Assembly: GCA_963676915.2 (NCBI GenBank)
Contig: CAXXVK010000067.1
Coordinates: forward strand, 1-64,000
Direction: 5' to 3'
Source: Myxococcota bacterium
GTDB taxonomy: Bacteria; Myxococcota_A; SURF-8; G963663525
Length of the DNA: 64,000 nt
Part shown: positions 55,694-64,000 of the stretch, piece by piece
Layout of the letters: the number at the start of each line of letters is the position of its first letter
Position numbering within the stretch: the stretch's first letter is position 1
The notes under the pieces: generated by a model
The model's database searches: none
Seen by the model: only the letters and a program-made list of their open reading frames with translations
Told to the model about the DNA's origin: nothing
Program-made: the position numbers and the translations under genes

Positions 55694-58195
55694 TCAGTGA
55701 ATCGGATACGTGATTTTCTCGGCTGATTCCGGCAGGTTGTCCAAAAACGTTCTGTTTCGCTCAACCCACTGAAAAAGCCTATCGAGTTCTTCTCCATTGA
55801 GGCGATACAAGGCGATGTCTACCTCTGGAATCCAGGGACCGAGGTTTTCGATGTATCCACCGTCCGAGTACCGCCGATTCACGAAATGCGATTGCACGAC
55901 GGGCGGGGTTTTCGCCACACGGCGGACGGCTTCGCAGAGGGGATCGAGGTCCATGACTCGTGGGACGTGATAGCAACCCATTCCGAAATAAAAATAGACA
56001 TCCTTGTAATTTCTAGGTTTTTCGAAGAATTTCCCGAAATCCGCGAGCAACAGTTTCTTTCCTTCGAGATACGCCGCCCCCTGCAAAAGGTCGGCTGTGC
56101 GGAACAGTCGCTCGGTCGTGACGATTCCGCCGGGTTGTCCCGAGTATCGGCTGTCTGAGATCAGCAGGTGGCTGTCATTGGGTAGGACTTCGACCATGCG
56201 TTGCACGAATTCCGTTTCATTCTGGATATTGTGCCGTGTATCGGCGGTGAAACGCCTGTGCGTGACCAACGGGGATAACAAACAAGCCGCCAGAGCTACG
56301 GCCAGCGCCGCACGCAAATGCCCTTTCAGAGGGAGATTTTCGAGGAAAAATGCTGCTCCGACTCCGACTGATACGCACAGCAGCACCAGATAGCTCAGTT
56401 GGTACCGCAATCCTTCGGCCAGAATCAAGCCCGACTGGATGAGAATCAGTTGCGTTCCAAAGCCTGGAAGCAGCAAAAGCAGTGGTAATGCCACGGGAAT
56501 ATTTCGTTGAGTTCCCAAGGCTTTCGGGAGCAAAGAAAGGAGCCATAACGGGAAAAACACGAGGGGATAAAGCCCCACATCCATCCAGTAATTCCAATAC
56601 TCGCTTAACCATCCGTATTTTAGTCCGGTCGGCATATTGAAAGTTGTAACGAAAGGATACGGAACAAGTGGGTTGGGAGTTGCAACCAGCAACGGTCCTA
56701 GCCCCCGCGAGATCACAGCAAACAGCATCGTGGTCGTCAACGTGATGACGAATGCGATCCACAGCCAGCGACTGCGGGGCCATCGAGAAAATGCGGTGCG
56801 ACTGGACAGCGCCAACAGACCGAATGCCGTACACGTCACGGCGAAACTCAGCAGAATGGAAAAGAAATGACGCCTCGTTTCGGGATCGACGGTGTTCAGG
56901 TCGTTCGTCATCAAATAAAGATGCGGGAAAAGAAACAGAATCGAAACGAGTAACAAAGGCCAGCGTTTCAACAGGCGTCCCAAGGCATTTCGTTCGAGAA
57001 TCATGAAAAACTGAATCATCCCCGCCATCGCCGCCACGGTGGACGACTCTCCCCGACACTGCACGAACAGAAGCAGCGTGCAAAGAAACAAGGCAAGGTC
57101 CAGATTCTTGTCGCGCTCCAGCCAGGCGAGAAGATGCGCGAAACTCGCGGCCAACAACAGGCCCGCCATCGGACCGATCACAAGACCGTTGGAGAAGAAA
57201 ATCAGCGGTGGAAAAGCCAGAACGGCCAGGGCGGAAAAACTGCCTCCCCAAACGGTTCCGCTCAAGCGCCGACCGGCGGCATACGCGGGAATCACAGCCA
57301 GCGCACCCACCACGGCGTTTGCGGTGAATACCAACCGGCTGGAAGGTCCGAAAAGCTGCATCAGCAGATACAACGGCAGACGATAGGTGGGTTTGTAGCC
57401 CTGCCCGAGGTATACGTCCCAACCCTCAAAAGTCCAGATCGCCATGTCTTTGAGGTGGGTGAAATCTCCATGCCCGGAACCAATCGGCAACCGTTCTGAT
57501 GACAGTAGCCGAACCGCAAGTGCTGCCACGAAAAAGAAAGCCATTACGAGGAGTTCCCTCGTTTTTCCGTGCTTGATTCCACCTGCGAGAAGCCATGCAA
57601 GTCCCAATAGATAAAATGCCCAGACCGCCAGGATGACGATCTTGTTGACCAGAAACATCGGTTGATGATCGATGCCGTGATGGGGAAATGGCGTGAAAAT
57701 GTTCTGTTCGTTCGGTTGCAGTCGTTTGCGAAGATCGGGGCGAAGATCGGCGATGTTGCGGGCTTGTGTCGTGACGAATTCCGGGCATTTGTACAAATGA
57801 GGATCTTCCCCGAGACGGTTCAACGTGTCCTGAATGGCCTGATCCCACCTTGTTTTGTCGGTCGCATTGGAAGTGATTTCCGAAGAGGTCGCCAAATCTT
57901 TGCTATCGAGAATTCCGAACCAGACCAATGCTTTGGGTGGTCCTTCGGTTTCTCCGAGCAAAAGAATGGCGCCTTCTTGCGCCTTTTCCACATGTTGAAC
58001 CGGGAGGTTTCGTTCCTTCAGATGATCGGCCAGCGTCGAGAAATCGCAAGGAGATGTTGAATTCTGCGCCCAGGATTCTTGTGGCTGTGAAGCGATCGTT
58101 AGTAACAACGTTACCGCCAGCAACCAAAGGAATCCGAAGCGAAAAACGGGGAATTTGCTGCGATATTTCGCGTTTTTTCGCAACATCTCGGTCAT
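55694..58195 (-). CDS. Multi-TM membrane protein resembling GT-C (PMT/ArnT-like) glycosyltransferases
   Basis: Periplasmic N-domain, then ALAVRLL...GHGDF, YKPTY..., NAVVGALAVIPAYAAGRRL, QCRGE and RYQL, as in GT-C folds; its start overlaps the upstream stop (ATGA). Confidence 0.6.
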   Translation of the reverse strand: MTEMLRKNAKYRSKFPVFRFGFLWLLAVTLLLTIASQPQESWAQNSTSPCDFSTLADHLKERNLPVQHVEKAQEGAILLLGETEGPPKALVWFGILDSKDLATSSEITSNATDKTRWDQAIQDTLNRLGEDPHLYKCPEFVTTQARNIADLRPDLRKRLQPNEQNIFTPFPHHGIDHQPMFLVNKIVILAVWAFYLLGLAWLLAGGIKHGKTRELLVMAFFFVAALAVRLLSSERLPIGSGHGDFTHLKDMAIWTFEGWDVYLGQGYKPTYRLPLYLLMQLFGPSSRLVFTANAVVGALAVIPAYAAGRRLSGTVWGGSFSALAVLAFPPLIFFSNGLVIGPMAGLLLAASFAHLLAWLERDKNLDLALFLCTLLLFVQCRGESSTVAAMAGMIQFFMILERNALGRLLKRWPLLLVSILFLFPHLYLMTNDLNTVDPETRRHFFSILLSFAVTCTAFGLLALSSRTAFSRWPRSRWLWIAFVITLTTTMLFAVISRGLGPLLVATPNPLVPYPFVTTFNMPTGLKYGWLSEYWNYWMDVGLYPLVFFPLWLLSLLPKALGTQRNIPVALPLLLLLPGFGTQLILIQSGLILAEGLRYQLSYLVLLCVSVGVGAAFFLENLPLKGHLRAALAVALAACLLSPLVTHRRFTADTRHNIQNETEFVQRMVEVLPNDSHLLISDSRYSGQPGGIVTTERLFRTADLLQGAAYLEGKKLLLADFGKFFEKPRNYKDVYFYFGMGCYHVPRVMDLDPLCEAVRRVAKTPPVVQSHFVNRRYSDGGYIENLGPWIPEVDIALYRLNGEELDRLFQWVERNRTFLDNLPESAEKITYPIH

Positions 58196-61100
58196 GTCCG
58201 CCCTTTTTTCTTTGCCAGTTTTCCTTTGACGGCCCCGAATCGTCGTTTCAAACCGAAACGTTTCCGTTTTTCGCCTGTTGCTCGTGGATGTTCTCGCAGC
58301 CCGAGCCATTCCTGGTCCAGATTTCGGCATTTGCGCGGAAGTGGTCGCTCCAGACGTTCACCCTGGGCGACCATCTCCCGGACGGTCGCCAACAAGGCGT
58401 CCATCGCCTGTTTTACCTGTGCTTCGCTGATATTCGGCCCGAGATAAAGGCGAAGCGTTTCTCCCTTGAACGGTCCGTATCCACTCCCTATCGTAACGCG
58501 ATTTTCCAGTCGTTCGCGCAGGCGGGATACTTCGATGTCTACCCCCAGCAGATGCGCCAGCACCCCGGAGCGATCCTCGACACGCTGTACCGCTTGCACG
58601 AGATGCGGCGTATTTTCGATGGCTTCTTGCACCACTTTCATTTTGCGTTCCGTCTCTTTTTGGATGGAACGCAAACCGCCTCGTTCGAGGTAGTCTTCCA
58701 ACGCTTCACCCAGTTGGAGAATACCTCGTAAGTTATGGTAGTGACCGGCAAACTGCTCTTTCTCCATTTGAGGAAACGTTCGATAGACCATGGCGACATC
58801 TTCGGGGCTGCGTTCGCTTTCTCGTCGTCTGGCCACTTCCATCGCTTTCGGGGAAACGATCAGCACGCCCAACCCGGCGGGACAACCCATGAATTTCTGT
58901 ACCGAGCCGAAATACACGTCGATGTCTTTCCATTCCCGTCGCAGATATCCGAATTCGCTGGTGCCGTCCACGATGAAGAGAAACGGATCTGTTGTGGCAC
59001 GTTTTCGTTTGATTTTTCCTGGTTTATTCACCCGGTTGCGAATCGCCTGGATGAGTGCCCCAACATCGGTTTGTACCGCCGTGCTCGTTTCGTGTCCCGT
59101 GATGAAAAAACCGACGCTCCGGTCCGACCGCTTCAGATTGGACGCGGGAAGTTTGCTCAACATTTCCGAGGCGATGGACTGTAGCTGGCCGTTCTCACCT
59201 TCTCCCCAACGTAATCGTACCGATTTGACACGCCCCGTACCGAAACGGCGGGCGACATCCAGCATTCGTTCTCCGAACGCTCCTTTGACTCCCACGATTC
59301 CGAAATCCACATCGAGACTTTCGACCGTCTGTTCCATGGCCTGCGTGGCGGAACCGGTGAAGAAGATGCTGTAATTTTTCGGAAGATTCAGGTACTTGCG
59401 CAAGAGGCTTTCGACTTCCAAAGCGGCTTGTTTACGAGCTTCGGGTTGCCCGGTGAGATCTGCAAGGCGGCGCTCGGTTTCCATGCTGCGTTTAAGTATC
59501 CGCCGGTTGATTTGTGCCGGACCGGGGTTGAGCGTGAAAAAATCTTGCTGGTTCCGAAGCCGTTCTTTCGCCTTTTCAGGAGAGAGAGAAGATGTCTGTC
59601 CCAACGCCAGCGCCACGCGACATCCCAACTCGGCAATCGCCTGTATTTTGGGTGTTTCAAGCGTTTCGTGTGGGCGCTCGTCCATTTCGAGCAGAGAATG
59701 CATGTAACCGATTTGATTGCGGCTGGCGGTTTTTCGAGCCACTTCCAAAGTTTCGGCATGACAGACGAGCAGCCCCAGTTCTTCCTGCAGGCCGAAAAGC
59801 TCGCCCGAAAACACAAAGGCAGCCGCTTTACGACGCATCGCCGCCGAAGGACGTTCTAGAGTTTGCATGACCAGGATTTTGTGAATCTCGGTCCAGGCGG
59901 GATCGTCCAGAAGTTTTGGGTTGTTGGTTGCGACGGCTTGAACTTCGGCGGGGGGCTGGTGTTGTTCTTTGTCGCGCAAGTCCAACGCAACGCCGCCTTT
60001 TCGGCGATTGACCAACGCTTTGAAACAGGCGACCACCGCTTTTTCTGTCGAATCGGTGAAAAACACCCGTTCGTCGGGTTCCAGACCCAGCCATTCGCGC
60101 AGCAATCCCAGAGTTTCGGACAAGATTCGCATGCCTTCCGGGCTACGGTGAGAATGCTGGCACCATAGCAAAATCGAAGTATGCAACCGAGCGATAGCCG
60201 GTGCGGAGGTCGGTAGCGACGGGTCCGAGGCGAAAGCGTTGAGAATGCCATGCTCCAGGCGTGGCGGGTGTGCGTGCAGTTTCAAGCGACTCGTTGCGCC
60301 GAACGTCCTTCCTCCATAGGTTTGTGTGTACCGGTACAGTTCTTCGGTTCGTTCCGGGTCGCGTCGCTCCAGCCAGCGTGCATACGCTGTGGAAAGGTGT
60401 TTTTCACCCGGTTCGAACTCGATACCGAACTGTCCGTGCAGGCTTTCGAGGTGTTTTATGAGCGTTTTTTTGCGATCTTGCAGAAAAACGTAGGCTTCTG
60501 AGGCGCGCTTGCGGGTGTCCTCGTCCTCGCCTTCGAGAAAATATGTGGCACGAATGTGGGGATCGATTCCCCCGCTGACGGCTTCCTGCACCATGCCGGG
60601 ATGAGCATGCCCGTAAATGTAGACACGGAACTGACGGTCCCGCAGATCCTGAACGTAGGCCCAGTACACTTCCATCACGGCCTTGTAGGCTCGTTCACGC
60701 AGGGCGGGATCGTCGCCGGTAATTCTGCAATTGAAGTCGGTTGAGGTGGTGAACCCCTTCCATTTCGAGGCTCGGGTCATCTCGGGAATGGCTTCGCGCA
60801 TTCGTTTTAACGCACGCATTTCGCTGGGCAGGAAATACACGATATCTTCGTCCGCGTCGTCGTCGTGATCGTCCGAGCGGTAGATGTCCCGCCACTTCTG
60901 CAAACCGCGAATCGCGGCGAAAAGGTTGTCAGGTTCTTCACGACCTTCCGGCGGTTCTTCGAACAGCGCTTCGAGAAGGTCGATCATTTCGTCCTCGGAC
61001 ACGTCGGTGGTGCAGTTGACCAACAGCCCGATATGGCATTTCGCATCGCGCATGGTTTCCAATAGACTGCCGATGCGACCGCGTTCTTCGCTGTCTTCCC

Positions 61101-62151
61101 GCAAACTGCCATAGGTGGCGCGTAACTCGTCGCGGGTGATGATCTCGAATCCTTTGAGCAATACCTGTCCTCGTGCCGCGACCAGTTTTCGACCGTCGGG
61201 GGAGTCTTGAAACACGGCACGGGCGTAGGGATCGAGCACCGACATCACGCGGGGCAGATGGTTGACCATCCCCGCGTACTGTTTGCCGATACCACCGGGA
61301 AGCGGAATGAAAAAGCCGAATTCGTTGACACCCTCTCGAATGACTTCGAGCGTCACCTCCGTAACCAGTCCGGCGCTACCGCTTAGGCCGACTTGCATTT
61401 TCGCCTCGTCGCCTTTCAGACGGCGCACCATGCCGGAGCCGTCTACCAGCGTGACGGCATGCAGGTTGAAGCGGGCGTTGGCGCGTACCGGTCCCTGGCT
61501 GCCGTTGCAGACCACCGCGCCGATCTGGGCCTGGTTGAAGGTGGTCAGATCGAGAAAGACCGAATGACCCGCCCCCAGAATGTCCACTAGCGCTTCGTTG
61601 ATTTCGGCGGGCGTCAATCCTGCCCAGGCACGTACGCGATGGTTGATCGACGGGTTGTGACTTCGGTATACGACCACTTTGTTTTTTAGAGTCGGTGAAT
61701 CGGGAACGACGGCTTCGAACACTTCACTATCGACGGCATCTTGAAGGGAAACATTTTCCAAACGACCGTTGGGATGCACCAAAAGACCTACAAACCCTTT
61801 CAATCCGTGCAATTTCGCTTTTTTCTGCACCTGAAAAGCCCCGACCGCGCTTGTCAGACTGCCGATGGCTATGGCACCGAAATTTTCTTCATGGGCTATC
61901 GATACGGTTTTTTTTGCGTCTTCGGTGCTTTTGATACGAACCAGACAATGGCTTTCCACTGGCTTGCCGGAATCGTCGTACAGGTTTTCTTCATAGGGCG
62001 TGAAACCGGCCTGTCGATACAGGCTTTGTATCCGTTCCCAATCTCTATCATCTTCGAAAAGAAAGGGTTTCCCTGGCGTTCGTCGTTTGTGCGGCCGTAG
62101 TTTGGCCAGCCGGGTTTCCCATTTCGCCCATTGTTTTCGGCGCTTGTTCAT
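58192..62151 (-). CDS. Fusion protein: FAD-linked oxidase (PCMH/GlcD type) + degenerate class V aminotransferase domain + PLP-Lys-bearing SerC-like aminotransferase
   Basis: IGSLTSAVGA, VRAWAG, AQIGAVVCNGSQG, VGLSGSAGLVTEVTL, YGHAHPG..GGIDPH and GEKH (oxidase); SHRSPE and ETP (middle domain); NPGPAQI, TGSATQAME, HETST, VDGTS, FGSVQKFMGCPAGLG and GSGYG..LR (C-terminal domain). Start at MNKRRK with SD GGGAG. Confidence 0.85.
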   Translation of the reverse strand: MNKRRKQWAKWETRLAKLRPHKRRTPGKPFLFEDDRDWERIQSLYRQAGFTPYEENLYDDSGKPVESHCLVRIKSTEDAKKTVSIAHEENFGAIAIGSLTSAVGAFQVQKKAKLHGLKGFVGLLVHPNGRLENVSLQDAVDSEVFEAVVPDSPTLKNKVVVYRSHNPSINHRVRAWAGLTPAEINEALVDILGAGHSVFLDLTTFNQAQIGAVVCNGSQGPVRANARFNLHAVTLVDGSGMVRRLKGDEAKMQVGLSGSAGLVTEVTLEVIREGVNEFGFFIPLPGGIGKQYAGMVNHLPRVMSVLDPYARAVFQDSPDGRKLVAARGQVLLKGFEIITRDELRATYGSLREDSEERGRIGSLLETMRDAKCHIGLLVNCTTDVSEDEMIDLLEALFEEPPEGREEPDNLFAAIRGLQKWRDIYRSDDHDDDADEDIVYFLPSEMRALKRMREAIPEMTRASKWKGFTTSTDFNCRITGDDPALRERAYKAVMEVYWAYVQDLRDRQFRVYIYGHAHPGMVQEAVSGGIDPHIRATYFLEGEDEDTRKRASEAYVFLQDRKKTLIKHLESLHGQFGIEFEPGEKHLSTAYARWLERRDPERTEELYRYTQTYGGRTFGATSRLKLHAHPPRLEHGILNAFASDPSLPTSAPAIARLHTSILLWCQHSHRSPEGMRILSETLGLLREWLGLEPDERVFFTDSTEKAVVACFKALVNRRKGGVALDLRDKEQHQPPAEVQAVATNNPKLLDDPAWTEIHKILVMQTLERPSAAMRRKAAAFVFSGELFGLQEELGLLVCHAETLEVARKTASRNQIGYMHSLLEMDERPHETLETPKIQAIAELGCRVALALGQTSSLSPEKAKERLRNQQDFFTLNPGPAQINRRILKRSMETERRLADLTGQPEARKQAALEVESLLRKYLNLPKNYSIFFTGSATQAMEQTVESLDVDFGIVGVKGAFGERMLDVARRFGTGRVKSVRLRWGEGENGQLQSIASEMLSKLPASNLKRSDRSVGFFITGHETSTAVQTDVGALIQAIRNRVNKPGKIKRKRATTDPFLFIVDGTSEFGYLRREWKDIDVYFGSVQKFMGCPAGLGVLIVSPKAMEVARRRESERSPEDVAMVYRTFPQMEKEQFAGHYHNLRGILQLGEALEDYLERGGLRSIQKETERKMKVVQEAIENTPHLVQAVQRVEDRSGVLAHLLGVDIEVSRLRERLENRVTIGSGYGPFKGETLRLYLGPNISEAQVKQAMDALLATVREMVAQGERLERPLPRKCRNLDQEWLGLREHPRATGEKRKRFGLKRRFGAVKGKLAKKKGRT

Positions 62152-62459
62152 ACGTCTCCCCACTCGAACGAGATGATTTATCCCGCATGTTTCATGCTTC
62201 GTTCGAAAGTGTACTGTAAGCCACGGCTGGTGGTCCAATATCTTTTCGCCAAACTCGCCAAAAGAATGCACCGAAAAACACCAAAATGTTAAAAATTCGT
62301 TTGAAATTTTACCTTCTTTACCTTTATACTTAAACTTTAATGGTGTATATTAATTATAAATATAAATAGGTACACCACGTAGCCGGAGAAAATGCGGGTA
62401 CGCATTGCTTTTTATTGACATTTAGGCTTGCCGTCATTATGCGTGCAGGAAAGTTGACC

Positions 62460-62729
62460 ATGCCGGAATCCATCACAGAATTCAAGCATGAATCCATTCA
62501 GGATCGAAAATCCATCGTAAAATACTTGAAAACCCTCTGGGAAGGCATCGACAACGGCCGTATCGCTTTTCACAGCGAGGAAGACGAGATCGAACTCATT
62601 CCCCCGGACCTGATGAACCTCAAGCTTCGGGTCGTTCATGCCGAGGACCGCTCGAAAATCATTTTGCAAATCGGCTGGAAACCCAATGAAGGCAAAGAAA
62701 AGCCCGGCAACCTGATCGTCAGGACGTAA
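62460..62729 (+). CDS. Amphi-Trp domain protein
   Basis: EFKHESIQD...IVKYLKTLWEGIDNGRI...IELIP...LQIGWK, with the conserved terminal Trp. Confidence 0.85.
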   Translation: MPESITEFKHESIQDRKSIVKYLKTLWEGIDNGRIAFHSEEDEIELIPPDLMNLKLRVVHAEDRSKIILQIGWKPNEGKEKPGNLIVRT

Positions 62730-62735
62730 CCCGCC

Positions 62736-64000
62736 ATGCCTCCTTTACGTGCACTTAGAGAAAATTTCAGTCTGATGGTGGTCGAGGTCGGCAAGCAGGT
62801 CGAAGAAACCCGTTTCGCCTTGACCGACTGGGACGGCAGCCTCGGAGAAAGCATTCTCAATCGGGACGATTACATCGACCGCATGAAGGATTTCATCACC
62901 CGCAACGTGTTTCGCAAGCTGGCGGAATCGCGTGATTTCGACAAATCTGTGGTCAAAATTCTCCAGGCGGGAATCGTCATCGTCAACAACCTCGAAAACA
63001 TCGCAGACTTTTGCACGAACATCGTCGGCCAGATTTGCCATCTTGGCGACCCGGATTTCCTGGATCGCTACGATTTCAAACTGCATTTTCATTATGTCAA
63101 TAAAGCGTTGTCCATCGTCGAAAAGACACTGTTTACTCAGGATCTGGATGCGGCTCTGGAAATCTGCAAATGCGAATTTGCCTTGGATGATCTGTATAAA
63201 AAGGACTTTCAAAGCATTTTGCAACAGCTTCAAAACTGTTCGTCGGAAGATCCCAAAGAAAACCCTGCGCAAAAGCTGGTTACGGCTCTGTTGATTTTCC
63301 GTTATCTCGAACGAATGGGCGATTGTCTGCTGAATATCGGCGAGGCGATCATCGAATCCGTGATCGGAGAAAAGCTCAAAATTCACCAGTATTTAGCGCT
63401 GCGCAACAGTTTCGACGTCAGCAGCGACGCCTCCTCGCCGGGAATTCCTGTTCACCACACCCATTTCGAAACCATCGGCGAAACCCGATCGGGTTGTCGT
63501 ATCGGGCGCGTTCGTCAACCCACCACGGATCAACACAGCCACTGGGCGATTTTCAAGGACGGAAATCTTGGAAAACTGACGCGGGAAAAGGAGAACATCG
63601 AAACTTGGGAACGCCTTTGTCCTGGCTTACCTCCGAAACTGTTCGGTTTTCAGCCGAAAGGCAACTATGCCTCGCTGTTGTTGGAATATTTGGGCGGCAT
63701 CAATTTTCAGGAAATCATTCTGGAACCCGATTCCAACCTGCTGGCCGATGGCATGAACCAGTTGAAAAAACTGCTGGAAGTGCTTTGGGAGATGACCTGG
63801 CGGGACGAACCCGCTCAAGCCGGTTTCATGGAGCAGCTTCTCGACCGCCTGTCAAGCGTCTATCGGTTGCATCCTGCCTTCAATACCGCCACTGCCGGAA
63901 TCAACGATTTGGAGTTGCCGTCGACGCATCGGTTGATACAGGAATTGAACGATATCGAGCGAACGCTTTTTGCGCCGTTTTCCGTTTTCATTCATGGGGA
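62736..64000 (+). CDS. PhoU-domain / aminoglycoside-phosphotransferase-like kinase fusion (partial, runs off the window)
   Basis: Manual translation is open from ATG 62736 to the end: RDDYID, NLENIAD and YLERMGD (PhoU repeats); ETRSGCRI, IFKDG, LLLEYLGG and ...FIHG(D) (kinase). Absent from the ORF track. Confidence 0.88.
   Translation, partial: MPPLRALRENFSLMVVEVGKQVEETRFALTDWDGSLGESILNRDDYIDRMKDFITRNVFRKLAESRDFDKSVVKILQAGIVIVNNLENIADFCTNIVGQICHLGDPDFLDRYDFKLHFHYVNKALSIVEKTLFTQDLDAALEICKCEFALDDLYKKDFQSILQQLQNCSSEDPKENPAQKLVTALLIFRYLERMGDCLLNIGEAIIESVIGEKLKIHQYLALRNSFDVSSDASSPGIPVHHTHFETIGETRSGCRIGRVRQPTTDQHSHWAIFKDGNLGKLTREKENIETWERLCPGLPPKLFGFQPKGNYASLLLEYLGGINFQEIILEPDSNLLADGMNQLKKLLEVLWEMTWRDEPAQAGFMEQLLDRLSSVYRLHPAFNTATAGINDLELPSTHRLIQELNDIERTLFAPFSVFIHG

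What the first reader, a model, noticed from the sequence alone, without database searches (positions are those of the whole stretch)
58192..60270. Single-chain pseudo-dimeric SerC-like aminotransferase: two copies that each keep the half of the active site the other lost
Established: class V/SerC enzymes are homodimers; the PLP Lys, Asp and phosphate-loop residues come from one subunit, and the SHR motif (E. coli His41/Arg42) and N-T-P loop come from the other. Seen: copy 1 (about 60250-59590) keeps SHRS (60142-60153) and ETP, but its Lys motif has decayed (FVFSGELFGLQEELGLL) and it lacks the small C-domain. Copy 2 (about 59550-58350) keeps NPGP, GSAT, HETS, VDGTS, SVQK (58894-58905) and GYG..LR, but has lost SHRS and TP (HYHNL). 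Inference: duplication followed by complementary degeneration into one composite active site in a single chain. I know of no described example.
Basis: partly seen in the sequence, partly recalled or inferred. Interest (0 to 1): 0.85.

Follow-up and report, generated by a model that had tools for sequence, protein, structure and literature searches.

The report
Single-chain pseudo-dimeric SerC-like aminotransferase fused to flavoenzyme
A large bacterial protein carries two copies of an enzyme domain that normally works as a pair of identical subunits; one copy has shrunk to the few residues it lends to the other, probably giving one shared active site in a single chain, a layout known from one other enzyme of this fold but new for this class.

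Summary
Every motif sits at the stated coordinates, inside a 1319/1359-aa gene (58192..62151/62271, minus strand).

Residues 906-1310 (copy 2) are an intact class-V aminotransferase. The nearest solved structure is 3ffr, annotated as SerC.

Residues 672-905 (copy 1) are a shortened fold-type-I large domain:
- Folded alone it matches 3ffr at Z 19.2.
- Its profile reaches 35 of 35 ordinary class-V enzymes, with library-wide E-values down to 2e-10.
- It has no small domain, no phosphate loop and no lysine.

Across 33 relatives copy 1 keeps only the residues that canonical SerC dimers donate in trans (His-Arg and the Thr-Pro loop). Copy 2 keeps the cis residues and has lost the trans ones.

AlphaFold (pTM 0.89) and a controlled complex prediction (0.89 against 0.00) pack copy 1 on copy 2 through the canonical dimer elements. 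Both may reflect memory of solved dimers.

- The principle has a precedent in the glycine decarboxylase P-protein.

The substrate is unknown. A role as the housekeeping SerC is unlikely, because a relative's genome also has two canonical serC genes. This is a new variant of a known kind, in an undescribed family found in Myxococcota and Peregrinibacteria.

The parts
58192..62151 (-). Whole gene, 1319 aa from the likely ATG start at 62151. The open frame runs up to a GTG at 62271, giving 1359 aa (P0001), and residue numbers in this report follow that 1359-aa frame.
   Evidence: ORF list. ATG at 62151 preceded by GGGGAG. The database form P0002 is 1319 aa and 100% identical.
60259..62037 (-). 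N-terminal flavoenzyme-like module (residues 79-671): a divergent FAD_binding_4 (VAO/PCMH-type) domain plus an unassigned cap region.
   Evidence: PF01565 at 20.5-23.4 bits, below the 26.4 cut-off, in the window's protein. 7 of 7 members match at E<=0.1, best 5.7e-7. Nearest atlas clusters are FAD_binding_4 proteins, scores 0.96-0.93. The profile has no PDB sequence hit and the cap region has no atlas hit.
59557..60258 (-). Copy 1 (residues 672-905): a shortened, lysine-less SerC-like fold-type-I large domain with six strands and no small domain.
   Evidence: Profile against PDB: top 5 hits are all PSAT/serine aminotransferases, 3ffr E 2.3e-4. 35 of 35 short library hits are PF00266. AlphaFold alone gives pLDDT 90.1. 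Foldseek to 3ffr E 8.5e-10. VIA Z 19.2. hhalign against copy 2 E 2.5e-5.
60142..60153 (-). SHRS (S707 H708 R709 S710) within the invariant W703-C704-x-x-S-H-R. This is the trans-acting His-Arg pair, equivalent to AtPSAT1 H110*/R111*.
   Evidence: Invariant in 10 of 10 and 13 of 13 aligned members. His-Arg is kept in 31 of 33 rows. W703-H708 and S710 lie in the predicted interface.
59650..59658 (-). E872-T873-P874: the trans-acting loop equivalent to AtPSAT1 N306*/T307*, which binds the PLP phosphate of the partner.
   Evidence: Invariant. Aligned to ETPN of 3ffr. T870-A878 lie in the predicted interface.
59767..59817 (-). Decayed Schiff-base motif of copy 1 (FVFSGELFGLQEELGLL, residues 819-835), with Leu825 where the lysine would be.
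   Evidence: Aligned to 'vffSvQKcfGlpaGlGv' of 3ffr and to GSVQKFMGCPAGLGVLIV of copy 2. A Lys stands at this position in only 1 of 33 rows, P0006.
58342..59556 (-). Copy 2 (residues 906-1310): a complete class-V aminotransferase with large and small domains.
   Evidence: PF00266 at 45.4 bits against a 21.5 cut-off. 3ffr phmmer E 1.5e-17. Foldseek to 3ffr E 3.2e-22, TM 0.85 normalised to the target.
59344..59355 (-). G973-S974-A975-T976: the PLP-phosphate loop (cis), equivalent to AtPSAT1 A145/T146.
   Evidence: Invariant. T972-Q977 lie in the predicted interface with copy 1.
58957..58971 (-). V1101-D1102-G-T-S1105: Asp1102 pairs with the pyridine N1 (cis).
   Evidence: Invariant. Aligned to the vD..S motif of class-V enzymes.
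58894..58905 (-). S1123-V-Q1125-K1126: the Schiff-base lysine motif (cis).
   Evidence: Lys is kept in 29 of the 31 rows that hold this region. S1123 and Q1125 touch copy 1's C704 segment in the predicted interface.
59443..59454 (-). T940-G-Q-P943: the decayed SHRS-equivalent of copy 2.
   Evidence: Alignment to 3ffr. This position is variable or gapped in all rows and never His-Arg.
58729..58743 (-). H1177-Y-H-N-L1181: the decayed Thr-Pro-loop equivalent of copy 2. It faces copy 1's dead site.
   Evidence: Alignment to ETPN of 3ffr. No conserved Thr-Pro in any row. H1179-G1183 lie in the predicted interface opposite copy 1's D740/S741.
58450..58452 (-). R1274: the predicted alpha-carboxylate-binding arginine (cis), equivalent to AtPSAT1 R403.
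   Evidence: Arg is present in every one of the 30 rows aligned at this position. Its role is inferred from PMC6043687 section 13.
58195..58341 (-). Basic C-terminal tail (residues 1311-1359). It is present only in the closest relatives.
   Evidence: Alignment (P0003 and P0004 only). pLDDT below 50 in the model.

Best explanation
The gene encodes a three-part enzyme.

**C-terminal two-thirds.** This is an intramolecular pseudo-dimer of a SerC-like class-V aminotransferase.
- Copy 2 (residues 906-1310) binds PLP through K1126, D1102, the G973-T976 phosphate loop and F999. It binds the substrate alpha-carboxylate through R1274.
- Copy 1 (residues 672-905) stands in for the second subunit of the canonical homodimer. 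It cannot bind PLP itself: it has no lysine, no phosphate loop, a shortened sheet and no small domain.
- Copy 1 donates into copy 2's pocket the residues a partner subunit normally donates. T873 of the ETP loop goes to the PLP phosphate. H708/R709 go to the distal anionic group of the substrate.
- The result is one composite active site per chain.

The homology of both copies, the complementary conservation and the predicted packing are shown. The contacts to cofactor and substrate are inferred.

**N-terminal ~590 residues.** This is a divergent FAD_binding_4-type flavoenzyme module. The most likely overall chemistry, which is inferred and not shown, is oxidation of a 2-hydroxy acid (or similar) bearing a distal anionic group to the 2-oxo acid, followed by transamination to the amino acid in the same polypeptide.

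**Origin.** The arrangement most likely arose by duplication of a 3ffr-like aminotransferase gene followed by complementary loss.
For: **Copy 2 is a class-V aminotransferase.**
- PF00266 scores 45.4 bits against a 21.5 cut-off.
- 3ffr phmmer E 1.5e-17; Foldseek TM 0.85 normalised to the target.

**Copy 1 is homologous.**
- Its profile against PDB gives phosphoserine/serine aminotransferases as the top 5 of 177,635 sequences, at colinear positions, with 3ffr at E 2.3e-4.
- Against 1.84e9 representatives it gives 63 hits. 35 of these are 235-374-aa proteins, and 35 of 35 are PF00266, with E down to 2e-10.
- hhalign of copy 1 against copy 2 gives E 2.5e-5, probability 75%, 146 columns.
- The two HMMs cross-hit each other's regions colinearly.
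- Folded alone, copy 1 has pLDDT 90.1 and matches 3ffr_A at Z 19.2, rmsd 2.7 A, 197 of 234 residues. All of the top 17 hits are class-V enzymes or the aminotransferase-like domain of 9os7.

**Which residues act in trans.** PMC6043687 sections 11 and 13 place H110*/R111* and N306*/T307* in trans, and K265, D241, A145/T146 and R403 in cis.

**Complementary conservation over 33 rows.**
- Copy-1 His-Arg is kept in 31 of 33.
- The copy-1 Thr-Pro loop is kept in 29 of 32, plus one Thr-Cys.
- The copy-2 Lys is kept in 29 of 31.
- No row has His-Arg or a conserved Thr-Pro at the copy-2 positions.
- Only 1 of 33 has Lys at the copy-1 position.
- In the 31 rows where both sides can be scored, 29 keep both, 2 (P0014, P0017) lost both, and 0 keep only one.

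**Packing.**
- The single-chain AlphaFold model of residues 651-1324 has pLDDT 86.5 and pTM 0.89, with the linker at pLDDT above 90.
- Complex prediction scored 0.89 in 3 of 3 runs; the best of 3 controls scored 0.00. The runs agree in at least 84% of contacts and the partner's pLDDT is at least 81. That mark was reached by 58 of 80 solved complexes and 2 of 110 mismatched pairs.
- The interface holds copy-2 T972-Q977, R1002, S1123, Q1125 and P1131-G1133, and copy-1 W703-H708, S710 and T870-A878. It also holds the mirror-image dead pair, copy-2 H1179-G1183 against copy-1 D740/S741.
- These are the elements that PMC6043687 section 10 names for the PSAT dimer interface (passage seen).
Against: - No experiment exists. 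All packing evidence comes from predictors that know SerC dimers and may place any two such domains this way. The tool itself says a pass may be from memory, and its calibration held no ligand or user alignments.
- I could not read coordinates. No distance from H708, R709 or T873 to K1126 or PLP was measured, and R709 itself is not in the listed contact set.
- The two 'dead' members group together in the tree (SH-like 95, with a long-branch warning). The co-loss may therefore be a single event and is weak as covariation.
- The first local hhalign run gave only probability 23%.
- Copy 1 alone has no Pfam hit and no single-sequence PDB hit.
- The flavin module scores below Pfam's cut-off in the window's protein, has no PDB sequence relative, and its cap is unassigned. 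The 'oxidise then transaminate' chemistry is conjecture.
- No conserved operon partner points to a substrate.
Confidence: 0.75

Rival explanations
1. Domain-swapped homodimer. The site is composite, but copy 1 of one chain complements copy 2 of a second chain, giving a dimer with two active sites rather than a self-contained monomer.
For: Fold-type-I enzymes are obligate dimers, and the conservation data do not distinguish intra-chain from inter-chain pairing. The complex was predicted from two separate chains.
Against: The single-chain AlphaFold model places both copies together with pTM 0.89 and a confidently modelled short helical linker, with pLDDT above 90 over model residues 231-260.
Confidence: 0.1
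2. Copy 1 is only a structural stand-in that covers copy 2's hydrophobic dimer face. Its SHR and ETP motifs are kept for folding or packing and play no part in catalysis.
For: The ETP loop and the WCQxSH segment lie in the predicted interface, so packing alone could constrain them. R709 is not among the listed contacts.
Against: In P0014 and P0017 the copy-1 domain is still recognisable (HMM E 3.5e-68 and 1.2e-57), yet His-Arg and Thr-Pro are gone, and these are the members whose copy-2 Lys and phosphate loop are gone too. The motifs are exactly the ones with known catalytic roles in trans.
Confidence: 0.08
3. The aminotransferase part is not a transaminase for a free metabolite. It is either a PLP-dependent enzyme of another reaction type (lyase or desulfurase-like) or a ligand-sensing pseudoenzyme that regulates the flavin module.
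For: Copy 2 scores far below every curated SerC or other equivalog cut-off, for example 45.3 against 443.6 bits. The cis His-Arg gate loop of PSAT is replaced by GYG. Class V includes desulfurases and lyases.
Against: The best sequence and fold matches are aminotransferases of the SerC/AGXT group, not NifS or SufS. All PLP-binding and carboxylate-binding residues are conserved. There is no catalytic Cys-loop signature of desulfurases; this last point is a statement from knowledge and was not tested here.
Confidence: 0.07

Closest known systems
Glycine decarboxylase P-protein (GLDC/GcvP): single-chain alpha2 form and split alpha-beta form
   Same: It is a fold-type-I PLP enzyme built from two homologous halves in one chain, or as two subunits. 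Only the C-terminal half keeps the Schiff-base lysine, and the N-terminal half is a degenerate copy (PMC7259800 section 9 passages). This is the same architectural principle: a pseudo-dimer replacing a homodimer, with one live site.
   Different: It belongs to a different family: no GcvP Pfam model hits this protein, and 1wyt_A is only rank 37 at Z 11.0 for copy 1. In the P-protein both halves are full-size, about 450-500 aa. Here copy 1 is cut down to about 230 aa with no small domain. The P-protein still dimerises and works on lipoyl-H-protein. This protein is fused to a flavoenzyme-like module.
3ffr (CHU_0995) and its ~355-aa relatives, annotated 'phosphoserine aminotransferase SerC' or 'class V-fold PLP enzyme', mostly Bacteroidota
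   Same: It is the nearest relative of both copies. It shares SHRS, the GSAT-type loop, SxQK, ETPN and the GYG...R C-terminal motif.
   Different: These are stand-alone single-domain proteins that keep both cis and trans motifs in one chain (P0023 and P0024 sequences), so they are presumably ordinary homodimers. Their own function is not established: they score below all curated SerC cut-offs.
Canonical phosphoserine aminotransferase (SerC/PSAT; for example AtPSAT1 6czx-6czz, E. coli 1bjn)
   Same: Same fold and the same division of labour between subunits: His-Arg and the Asn/Glu-Thr loop act in trans, while Lys, Asp, the phosphate loop and Arg act in cis.
   Different: It is a homodimer with two sites. 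The cis His-Arg gate loop (H396/R397) is GYG here. Sequence scores are far below the equivalog cut-offs. A relative's genome has two canonical serC genes as well as the fusion.
Class-V aminotransferase fusions such as PntC-AEPT (6pd1)
   Same: A class-V aminotransferase fused in one chain to the enzyme of a neighbouring pathway step. It appears among the fold hits.
   Different: Its partner is a cytidylyltransferase, not a flavoenzyme. It has a single aminotransferase domain, not an internal pseudo-dimer.

Membership tests
Class-V aminotransferase / fold-type-I PLP enzyme (PF00266): copy 2 | Pfam model over the gathering score | tested here: met
   45.4 bits against a 21.5 cut-off, residues 1096-1236.
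Class-V aminotransferase / fold-type-I PLP enzyme (PF00266): copy 2 | Schiff-base Lys, Asp to the pyridine N1, and a phosphate-binding loop at the start of a helix | tested here: met
   K1126 (SVQK), D1102 (VDGTS) and G973-T976 are aligned to the 3ffr motifs and are invariant or nearly invariant in the family.
Class-V aminotransferase / fold-type-I PLP enzyme (PF00266): copy 2 | Large plus small domain fold | tested here: met
   Foldseek to 3ffr gives E 3.2e-22 and TM 0.85 normalised to the target.
Fold-type-I PLP large domain: copy 1 | Fold of the seven-stranded large domain | tested here: met
   VIA Z 19.2 and rmsd 2.7 A over 197 of 234 residues to 3ffr_A residues 16-262. Foldseek E 8.5e-10. 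The model shows six strands rather than seven.
Fold-type-I PLP large domain: copy 1 | Sequence homology to class-V enzymes | tested here: met
   Profile hits: 35 of 35 short library hits are PF00266. PDB top 5. The single sequence gives no Pfam or PDB hit.
Fold-type-I PLP large domain: copy 1 | Own PLP-binding residues (Lys, phosphate loop) and a small domain | tested here: not met
   Leu825 stands in place of Lys, D740-S-T-E in place of the Gly-rich loop, and there is no small domain. Copy 1 is a degenerate member, not a working PLP enzyme on its own.
Characterised phosphoserine aminotransferase (SerC equivalogs TIGR01364/5/6, NF003764, NF002841) | Score over the curated equivalog cut-off | tested here: not met
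   The best is 45.3 bits against 443.6 (TIGR01364). All models score far below their cut-offs.
Characterised phosphoserine aminotransferase (SerC equivalogs TIGR01364/5/6, NF003764, NF002841) | Cis His-Arg gate loop that clamps the substrate phosphate (AtPSAT1 H396/R397) | tested here: not met
   G1264-Y-G1266 stands at that place here, as in 3ffr. The role of the loop is taken from PMC6043687 section 13.
Characterised phosphoserine aminotransferase (SerC equivalogs TIGR01364/5/6, NF003764, NF002841) | Trans His-Arg pair and trans Thr loop | tested here: met
   Both are present and invariant, but they sit on copy 1 of the same chain.
Glycine decarboxylase P-protein type pseudo-dimer | Two homologous fold-type-I halves, with only one keeping the lysine | tested here: met
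   The precedent is described in PMC7259800 section 9.
Glycine decarboxylase P-protein type pseudo-dimer | Sequence membership in the GcvP family | tested here: not met
   No GcvP model is among the Pfam or NCBIfam hits. This protein works like the P-protein in architecture but is not a member of that family.
VAO/PCMH FAD-linked oxidase (PF01565): N-terminal module | Pfam model over the gathering score | tested here: inconclusive
   The window's protein scores 20.5-23.4 bits against a 26.4 cut-off and matches only profile positions 63-138 of 139. 7 of 7 members match at E<=0.1, best 5.7e-7. PF01565 is precomputed for 4 of 10 relatives. The atlas neighbours are FAD_binding_4 proteins.
VAO/PCMH FAD-linked oxidase (PF01565): N-terminal module | FAD actually bound, and an identifiable substrate (cap) domain | not testable with these tools
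   No PF02913 hit, no PDB sequence hit for the profile, and no atlas hit for the cap.

The most novel reading that the evidence does not exclude
An obligate-homodimer PLP enzyme has been turned into a self-sufficient, single-site, possibly monomeric enzyme. It did this by internal duplication and complementary decay, with the second protomer stripped to a ~230-residue 'donor' domain. It is also wired in the same chain to a flavin dehydrogenase, so that a 2-hydroxy acid bearing a distal anionic group is oxidised and then aminated without releasing the 2-oxo acid. That would make it a bifunctional hydroxy-acid-to-amino-acid synthase. In the small Peregrinibacteria genomes, which show no SerC-type gene, it could be the only route to such an amino acid, for example phosphoserine from 3-phosphoglycerate.
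Probability: 0.15. Interest if true: 0.8.

Novelty: new variant of a known kind. Interest (0 to 1): 0.62.

Why it matters
Fold-type-I PLP enzymes are the textbook case of active sites built across a homodimer interface. The P-protein was the known exception.

This family would be a second, independent case, and a more extreme one. The partner domain is reduced to about 230 residues and keeps only what it donates in trans. That gives a natural minimal definition of what the second subunit is for.

It is also a clean example of duplication followed by complementary degeneration within one polypeptide. It offers a template for engineering monomeric, single-site aminotransferases.

The fusion to a flavoenzyme-like module suggests an undescribed two-step pathway. 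It occurs in Myxococcota and in genome-reduced Peregrinibacteria, where every retained large gene is likely to matter.

The family has no Pfam or NCBIfam model of its own, and sources name it 'hypothetical protein'.

Tried and rejected
1. **Direct blastp of copy 1 against copy 2.** This gave only two weak colinear HSPs, E 0.003 and 0.039 on a tiny search space. A first local hhalign without realignment gave probability 23%. Neither was decisive; later profile and fold evidence replaced them.
2. **Copy 1 as a single sequence.** It had no Pfam family at E<=10 and no meaningful PDB hit.
3. **Reading model coordinates.** I wanted to superpose on a SerC dimer and measure distances, but models are not exposed to the Python box. 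I used the interface list from complex prediction instead.
4. **Housekeeping SerA/SerC replacement (3-phosphoglycerate to phosphoserine).**
   - Five Peregrinibacteria genomes have no SerC-type hit.
   - 4 of those 5 have an NAD-type 2-hydroxyacid dehydrogenase.
   - 0 of 5 have SerB over the cut-off; the hits are 786-942-aa frames.
   - 4 of 5 have SHMT.
   - The Myxococcota relative has two canonical serC genes besides the fusion.
   - I rejected this as the general explanation and kept it only as a low-probability reading for CPR. These MAGs are incomplete, so absences are weak evidence.
5. **Conserved gene neighbours.** None is shared across clades.
6. **Split or stand-alone forms.**
   - P0070 (225 aa) is a garbled fragment of copy 2, not a separate subunit.
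   - P0071 lies on a 1-kb contig.
   - P0019 (648 aa) may be copy 1 + copy 2 without the flavin module, or a fragment. I did not resolve this.
7. **Covariation as independent events.** P0014 and P0017 group together (the maximum-likelihood run did not finish), so I do not claim two independent co-losses.
8. **N-terminal module.** The profile has no PDB hit and the cap region has no atlas hit.
9. **Literature.** Three full-text searches found no paper describing a pseudo-dimeric or tandem class-V aminotransferase. Of these, only the listings were seen, plus passages of PMC7259800. Subscription journals are not covered, and supplements were not consulted.
10. **Earlier findings of this scan.** These were closed to the session.


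Full report
**1. What is there**

The finding lies in the C-terminal half of one long minus-strand ORF, 58192..62271 (1359 aa, P0001). The likely start is the ATG at 62151, which is preceded by GGGGAG. That start matches the 1319-aa database form P0002. Residue numbers here follow the 1359-aa frame, so residue i begins at window position 62271-3(i-1).

**2. Copy 2 (residues 906-1310) is an intact class-V aminotransferase**

- Pfam PF00266 scores 45.4 bits against a cut-off of 21.5.
- The best solved relative is 3ffr, a structural-genomics 'SerC' (phmmer E 1.5e-17). Foldseek gives E 3.2e-22 and TM 0.85 normalised to the target.
- G973-S-A-T976, F999, H1060-E-T1062, D1102, S1123/Q1125/K1126 and R1274 are invariant or nearly so.
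- In the alignment to 3ffr, T940-G-Q-P943 stands where 3ffr has SHRS, and H1177-Y-H-N1180 where 3ffr has ETPN.
- It is not a characterised SerC. All curated SerC models score far below their cut-offs, for example 45.3 against 443.6 bits. The cis His-Arg gate loop of PSAT is replaced by GYG, as it is in 3ffr.

**3. Copy 1 (residues 672-905) is a degenerate homologue of the same enzyme**

The single sequence finds nothing in Pfam or PDB. Direct comparison with copy 2 is weak. A 7-sequence profile of copy 1 alone (A3) is more informative:

- Against PDB, its top 5 of 177,635 sequences are phosphoserine/serine aminotransferases at colinear positions. 3ffr scores E 2.3e-4 and covers the Lys region and the Thr-Pro loop.
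- Against 1.84 billion representatives it gives 63 hits at E<=1e-3. These break down as:
  - 24 proteins of 1000 aa or more, one of which (P0033) is an unrelated 14-repeat protein;
  - 4 shorter pieces of the family;
  - 35 proteins of 235-374 aa.
- All 35 of those 35 short proteins are PF00266 (8, 27), with E down to 2e-10.
- Profile-profile comparison of copy 1 with copy 2 gives E 2.5e-5, probability 75%, over 146 columns. It aligns FFTDSTEKA with FFTGSATQA, ILVMQT with FIVDGTS, and FSGELFG with GSVQKFMG.
- The two HMMs cross-hit each other's regions colinearly in many members.
- Folded alone, copy 1 has pLDDT 90.1. Its best matches are 3ffr by Foldseek (E 8.5e-10) and 3ffr_A in an all-against-representatives VIA search (Z 19.2, rmsd 2.7 A, 197 of 234 residues, chain range 16-262). 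That range is the large domain only.
- The model has six strands. There is no small domain.

**4. Which residues act in trans in canonical enzymes**

I read sections 11 and 13 of the AtPSAT1 structure paper (PMC6043687) in full.

- In cis with K265 are W171, T221, D241, A145/T146, Q264, K174, H396/R397 and R403.
- From the other subunit come H110*/R111*, which bind the phosphate of phosphoserine, and N306*/T307* (plus Q142*), which bind the PLP phosphate.

**5. Complementary conservation**

The family was collected. The motif table covers 33 rows; P0033 was dropped as unrelated and P0002 as identical to the window.

Copy 1:
- The His-Arg pair is kept in 31 of 33 rows. The exceptions are P0014 (HPD) and P0017 (AQD).
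- The Thr-Pro loop is kept in 29 of the 32 rows that hold the region. P0047 has Thr-Cys, and the loop is lost in P0014 and P0017.
- Copy 1 has a Lys at the Schiff-base position in 1 of 33 rows (P0006) and never has a Gly-rich phosphate loop.

Copy 2:
- The Lys is kept in 29 of the 31 rows that hold the region. It is lost in P0014 and P0017, which have also lost the GSAT loop.
- Copy 2 never has His-Arg or a conserved Thr-Pro at the equivalent places.

Of the 31 rows where both sides can be scored, 29 keep both, 2 have lost both, and 0 keep one alone.

The two dead members group together in a FastTree tree of 30 rows (SH-like support 95, with a long-branch warning). For that tree I left out P0033, P0013, P0010 and P0019. 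The maximum-likelihood run did not finish. The co-loss may therefore be one event.

Even so, it shows that the copy-1 motifs decay when catalysis is lost while the domain itself remains recognisable (HMM E 3.5e-68 and 1.2e-57).

**6. Packing**

- AlphaFold on residues 651-1324 with a 13-row alignment gives mean pLDDT 86.5 and pTM 0.89, with the inter-copy linker above pLDDT 90.
- Complex prediction, run with copy 2, PLP riding along, and copy 1 as the partner, scored 0.89 in each of 3 runs. The best of 3 controls scored 0.00.
- The runs agree in at least 84% of contacts, and the partner's pLDDT is at least 81.
- That mark was reached by 58 of 80 solved complexes and by 2 of 110 mismatched pairs. 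The tool warns that these counts hold only roughly here, because I supplied my own alignments and a ligand, and that a pass may be from memory of solved dimers.

Mapped to the protein, the interface holds:
- Copy 2: the N-terminal helix N907-T940, the phosphate loop T972-Q977, R1002, S1123, Q1125, P1131-G1133, A1160-R1164 and H1179-G1183.
- Copy 1: A694-H708 and S710, D740-V754, Q829-E831 and T870-A878.

These are the elements the AtPSAT1 paper lists for the canonical dimer interface: the N-terminal coil and helices, the loop carrying N306/T307, the loop carrying the lysine, and helices alpha4 and alpha5 (section 10 passage).

The pattern is pseudo-two-fold. The live pair is the copy-1 ETP loop against the copy-2 GSAT loop. 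The dead mirror pair is copy-2 HNLRG against copy-1 DSTE.

I could not read coordinates, so no distances to K1126 were measured.

**7. The rest of the protein and its context**

Residues ~79-671 are a divergent FAD_binding_4-type module.
- The score is below the Pfam cut-off in the window's protein.
- All 7 of 7 members match, best E 5.7e-7.
- The nearest atlas clusters are FAD-linked oxidases.
- The cap region is unassigned.

The family occurs in a Myxococcota MAG (L001) and in Peregrinibacteria/Peribacteria MAGs (L002-L006). A deeper clade of 1388-1567-aa proteins has an even shorter copy 1 that still keeps SHR and ETPN.

Neighbours are not conserved across clades.

The Peregrinibacteria genomes lack a SerC-type gene and have no SerB over the cut-off. 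The Myxococcota relative has two canonical serC genes besides the fusion. A general role as the housekeeping SerC is therefore unlikely.

The pocket is strongly cationic (H708*, R709*, R1002, R1274). This suggests an acidic substrate with a second anionic group; that is an inference.

**8. Comparison with what is known, and verdict**

The architectural principle is already described for the glycine decarboxylase P-protein: two homologous fold-type-I halves, with only one keeping the lysine (PMC7259800, section 9 passages). The original P-protein structure papers are recalled from memory and were not read.

This protein is not a member of the P-protein family. It is nearest to the uncharacterised 3ffr-like branch of class V.

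Three full-text searches found no description of a pseudo-dimeric class-V aminotransferase or of this fusion. Sources name the family 'hypothetical protein'.

I rate it a real feature and a new variant of a known kind. I put confidence at about 0.75 that the composite single-chain site is how it works. My confidence in the specific chemistry is much lower.

Noticed in passing
window 58192-58195 and ORF 55694..58330 (-): The stop TGA of the fusion gene overlaps an in-frame ATG (ATGA) of the downstream ORF. That ORF is probably translated from this ATG as a protein of about 833 aa with many hydrophobic segments. It has no Pfam family. This suggests translational coupling. The pairing is not seen in L001.
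   Followed up: partly
L002:231-8162, L003:5747-12981, L005:5278-13011: In three Peribacteria/Peregrinibacteria genomes the fusion gene sits between dnaK and grpE-hrcA on the opposite strand, interrupting the usual heat-shock operon. A GAPDH gene lies a few kb away.
   Followed up: no
L004:4094-14469, L006:4731-14304: In two other Peregrinibacteria genomes the gene follows pyruvate formate-lyase and its activase on the same strand. It precedes an AMP-phosphorylase-like gene (Glycos_trans_3N/PYNP_C) and an IF-2B-family gene. From memory, these two belong to the nucleotide-salvage route that yields 3-phosphoglycerate in CPR bacteria.
   Followed up: no
P0014 (1110 aa) and P0017 (1448 aa): These family members have lost the copy-1 His-Arg and Thr-Pro and the copy-2 Lys, phosphate loop and Asp region, while the domains remain recognisable. 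They are likely pseudoenzymes. They group together in the tree, with a long-branch warning.
   Followed up: partly
P0006 / L006:9843-10556: This is the one member whose copy 1 still has a Lys at the Schiff-base-equivalent position (SAEKFG). It is possibly a relic of the ancestral live site.
   Followed up: no
P0025, P0030, P0035, P0036, P0042, P0045-P0048, P0054, P0063: This deep sister clade (1388-1567 aa) has an even more reduced copy 1 in which the middle strands are deleted, PHKTS/CDxTS variants in copy 2, and a further C-terminal extension of roughly 170-300 residues of unknown nature.
   Followed up: partly
P0019 (648 aa): It appears to consist of copy 1 + copy 2 only, without the flavin module. 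It may be a stand-alone pseudo-dimer or a gene cut by a contig end.
   Followed up: no
PDB 9os7 (fold hits): The N-terminal ancillary domain of Mycoplasma penetrans methionyl-tRNA synthetase matches copy 1 at Z 15.6. This is another case of an aminotransferase-like domain embedded in a larger asymmetric protein. Only the entry title was seen.
   Followed up: no
P0033 (1518 aa): An unrelated protein with 14 tandem repeats of about 82 residues cross-hits positions 148-189 of the copy-1 profile. It is a false positive of the library search and was dropped from all counts.
   Followed up: yes
window 58195-58341 (residues 1311-1359): A lysine- and arginine-rich C-terminal tail is shared only with the two closest relatives (P0003, P0004) and is modelled with pLDDT below 50.
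   Followed up: no
window 62415-62729 (+) and 62736-63998 (+): The divergently transcribed neighbours are an Amphi-Trp domain protein and a PhoU-domain protein. The intergenic region 62152-62414 is AT-rich.
   Followed up: no
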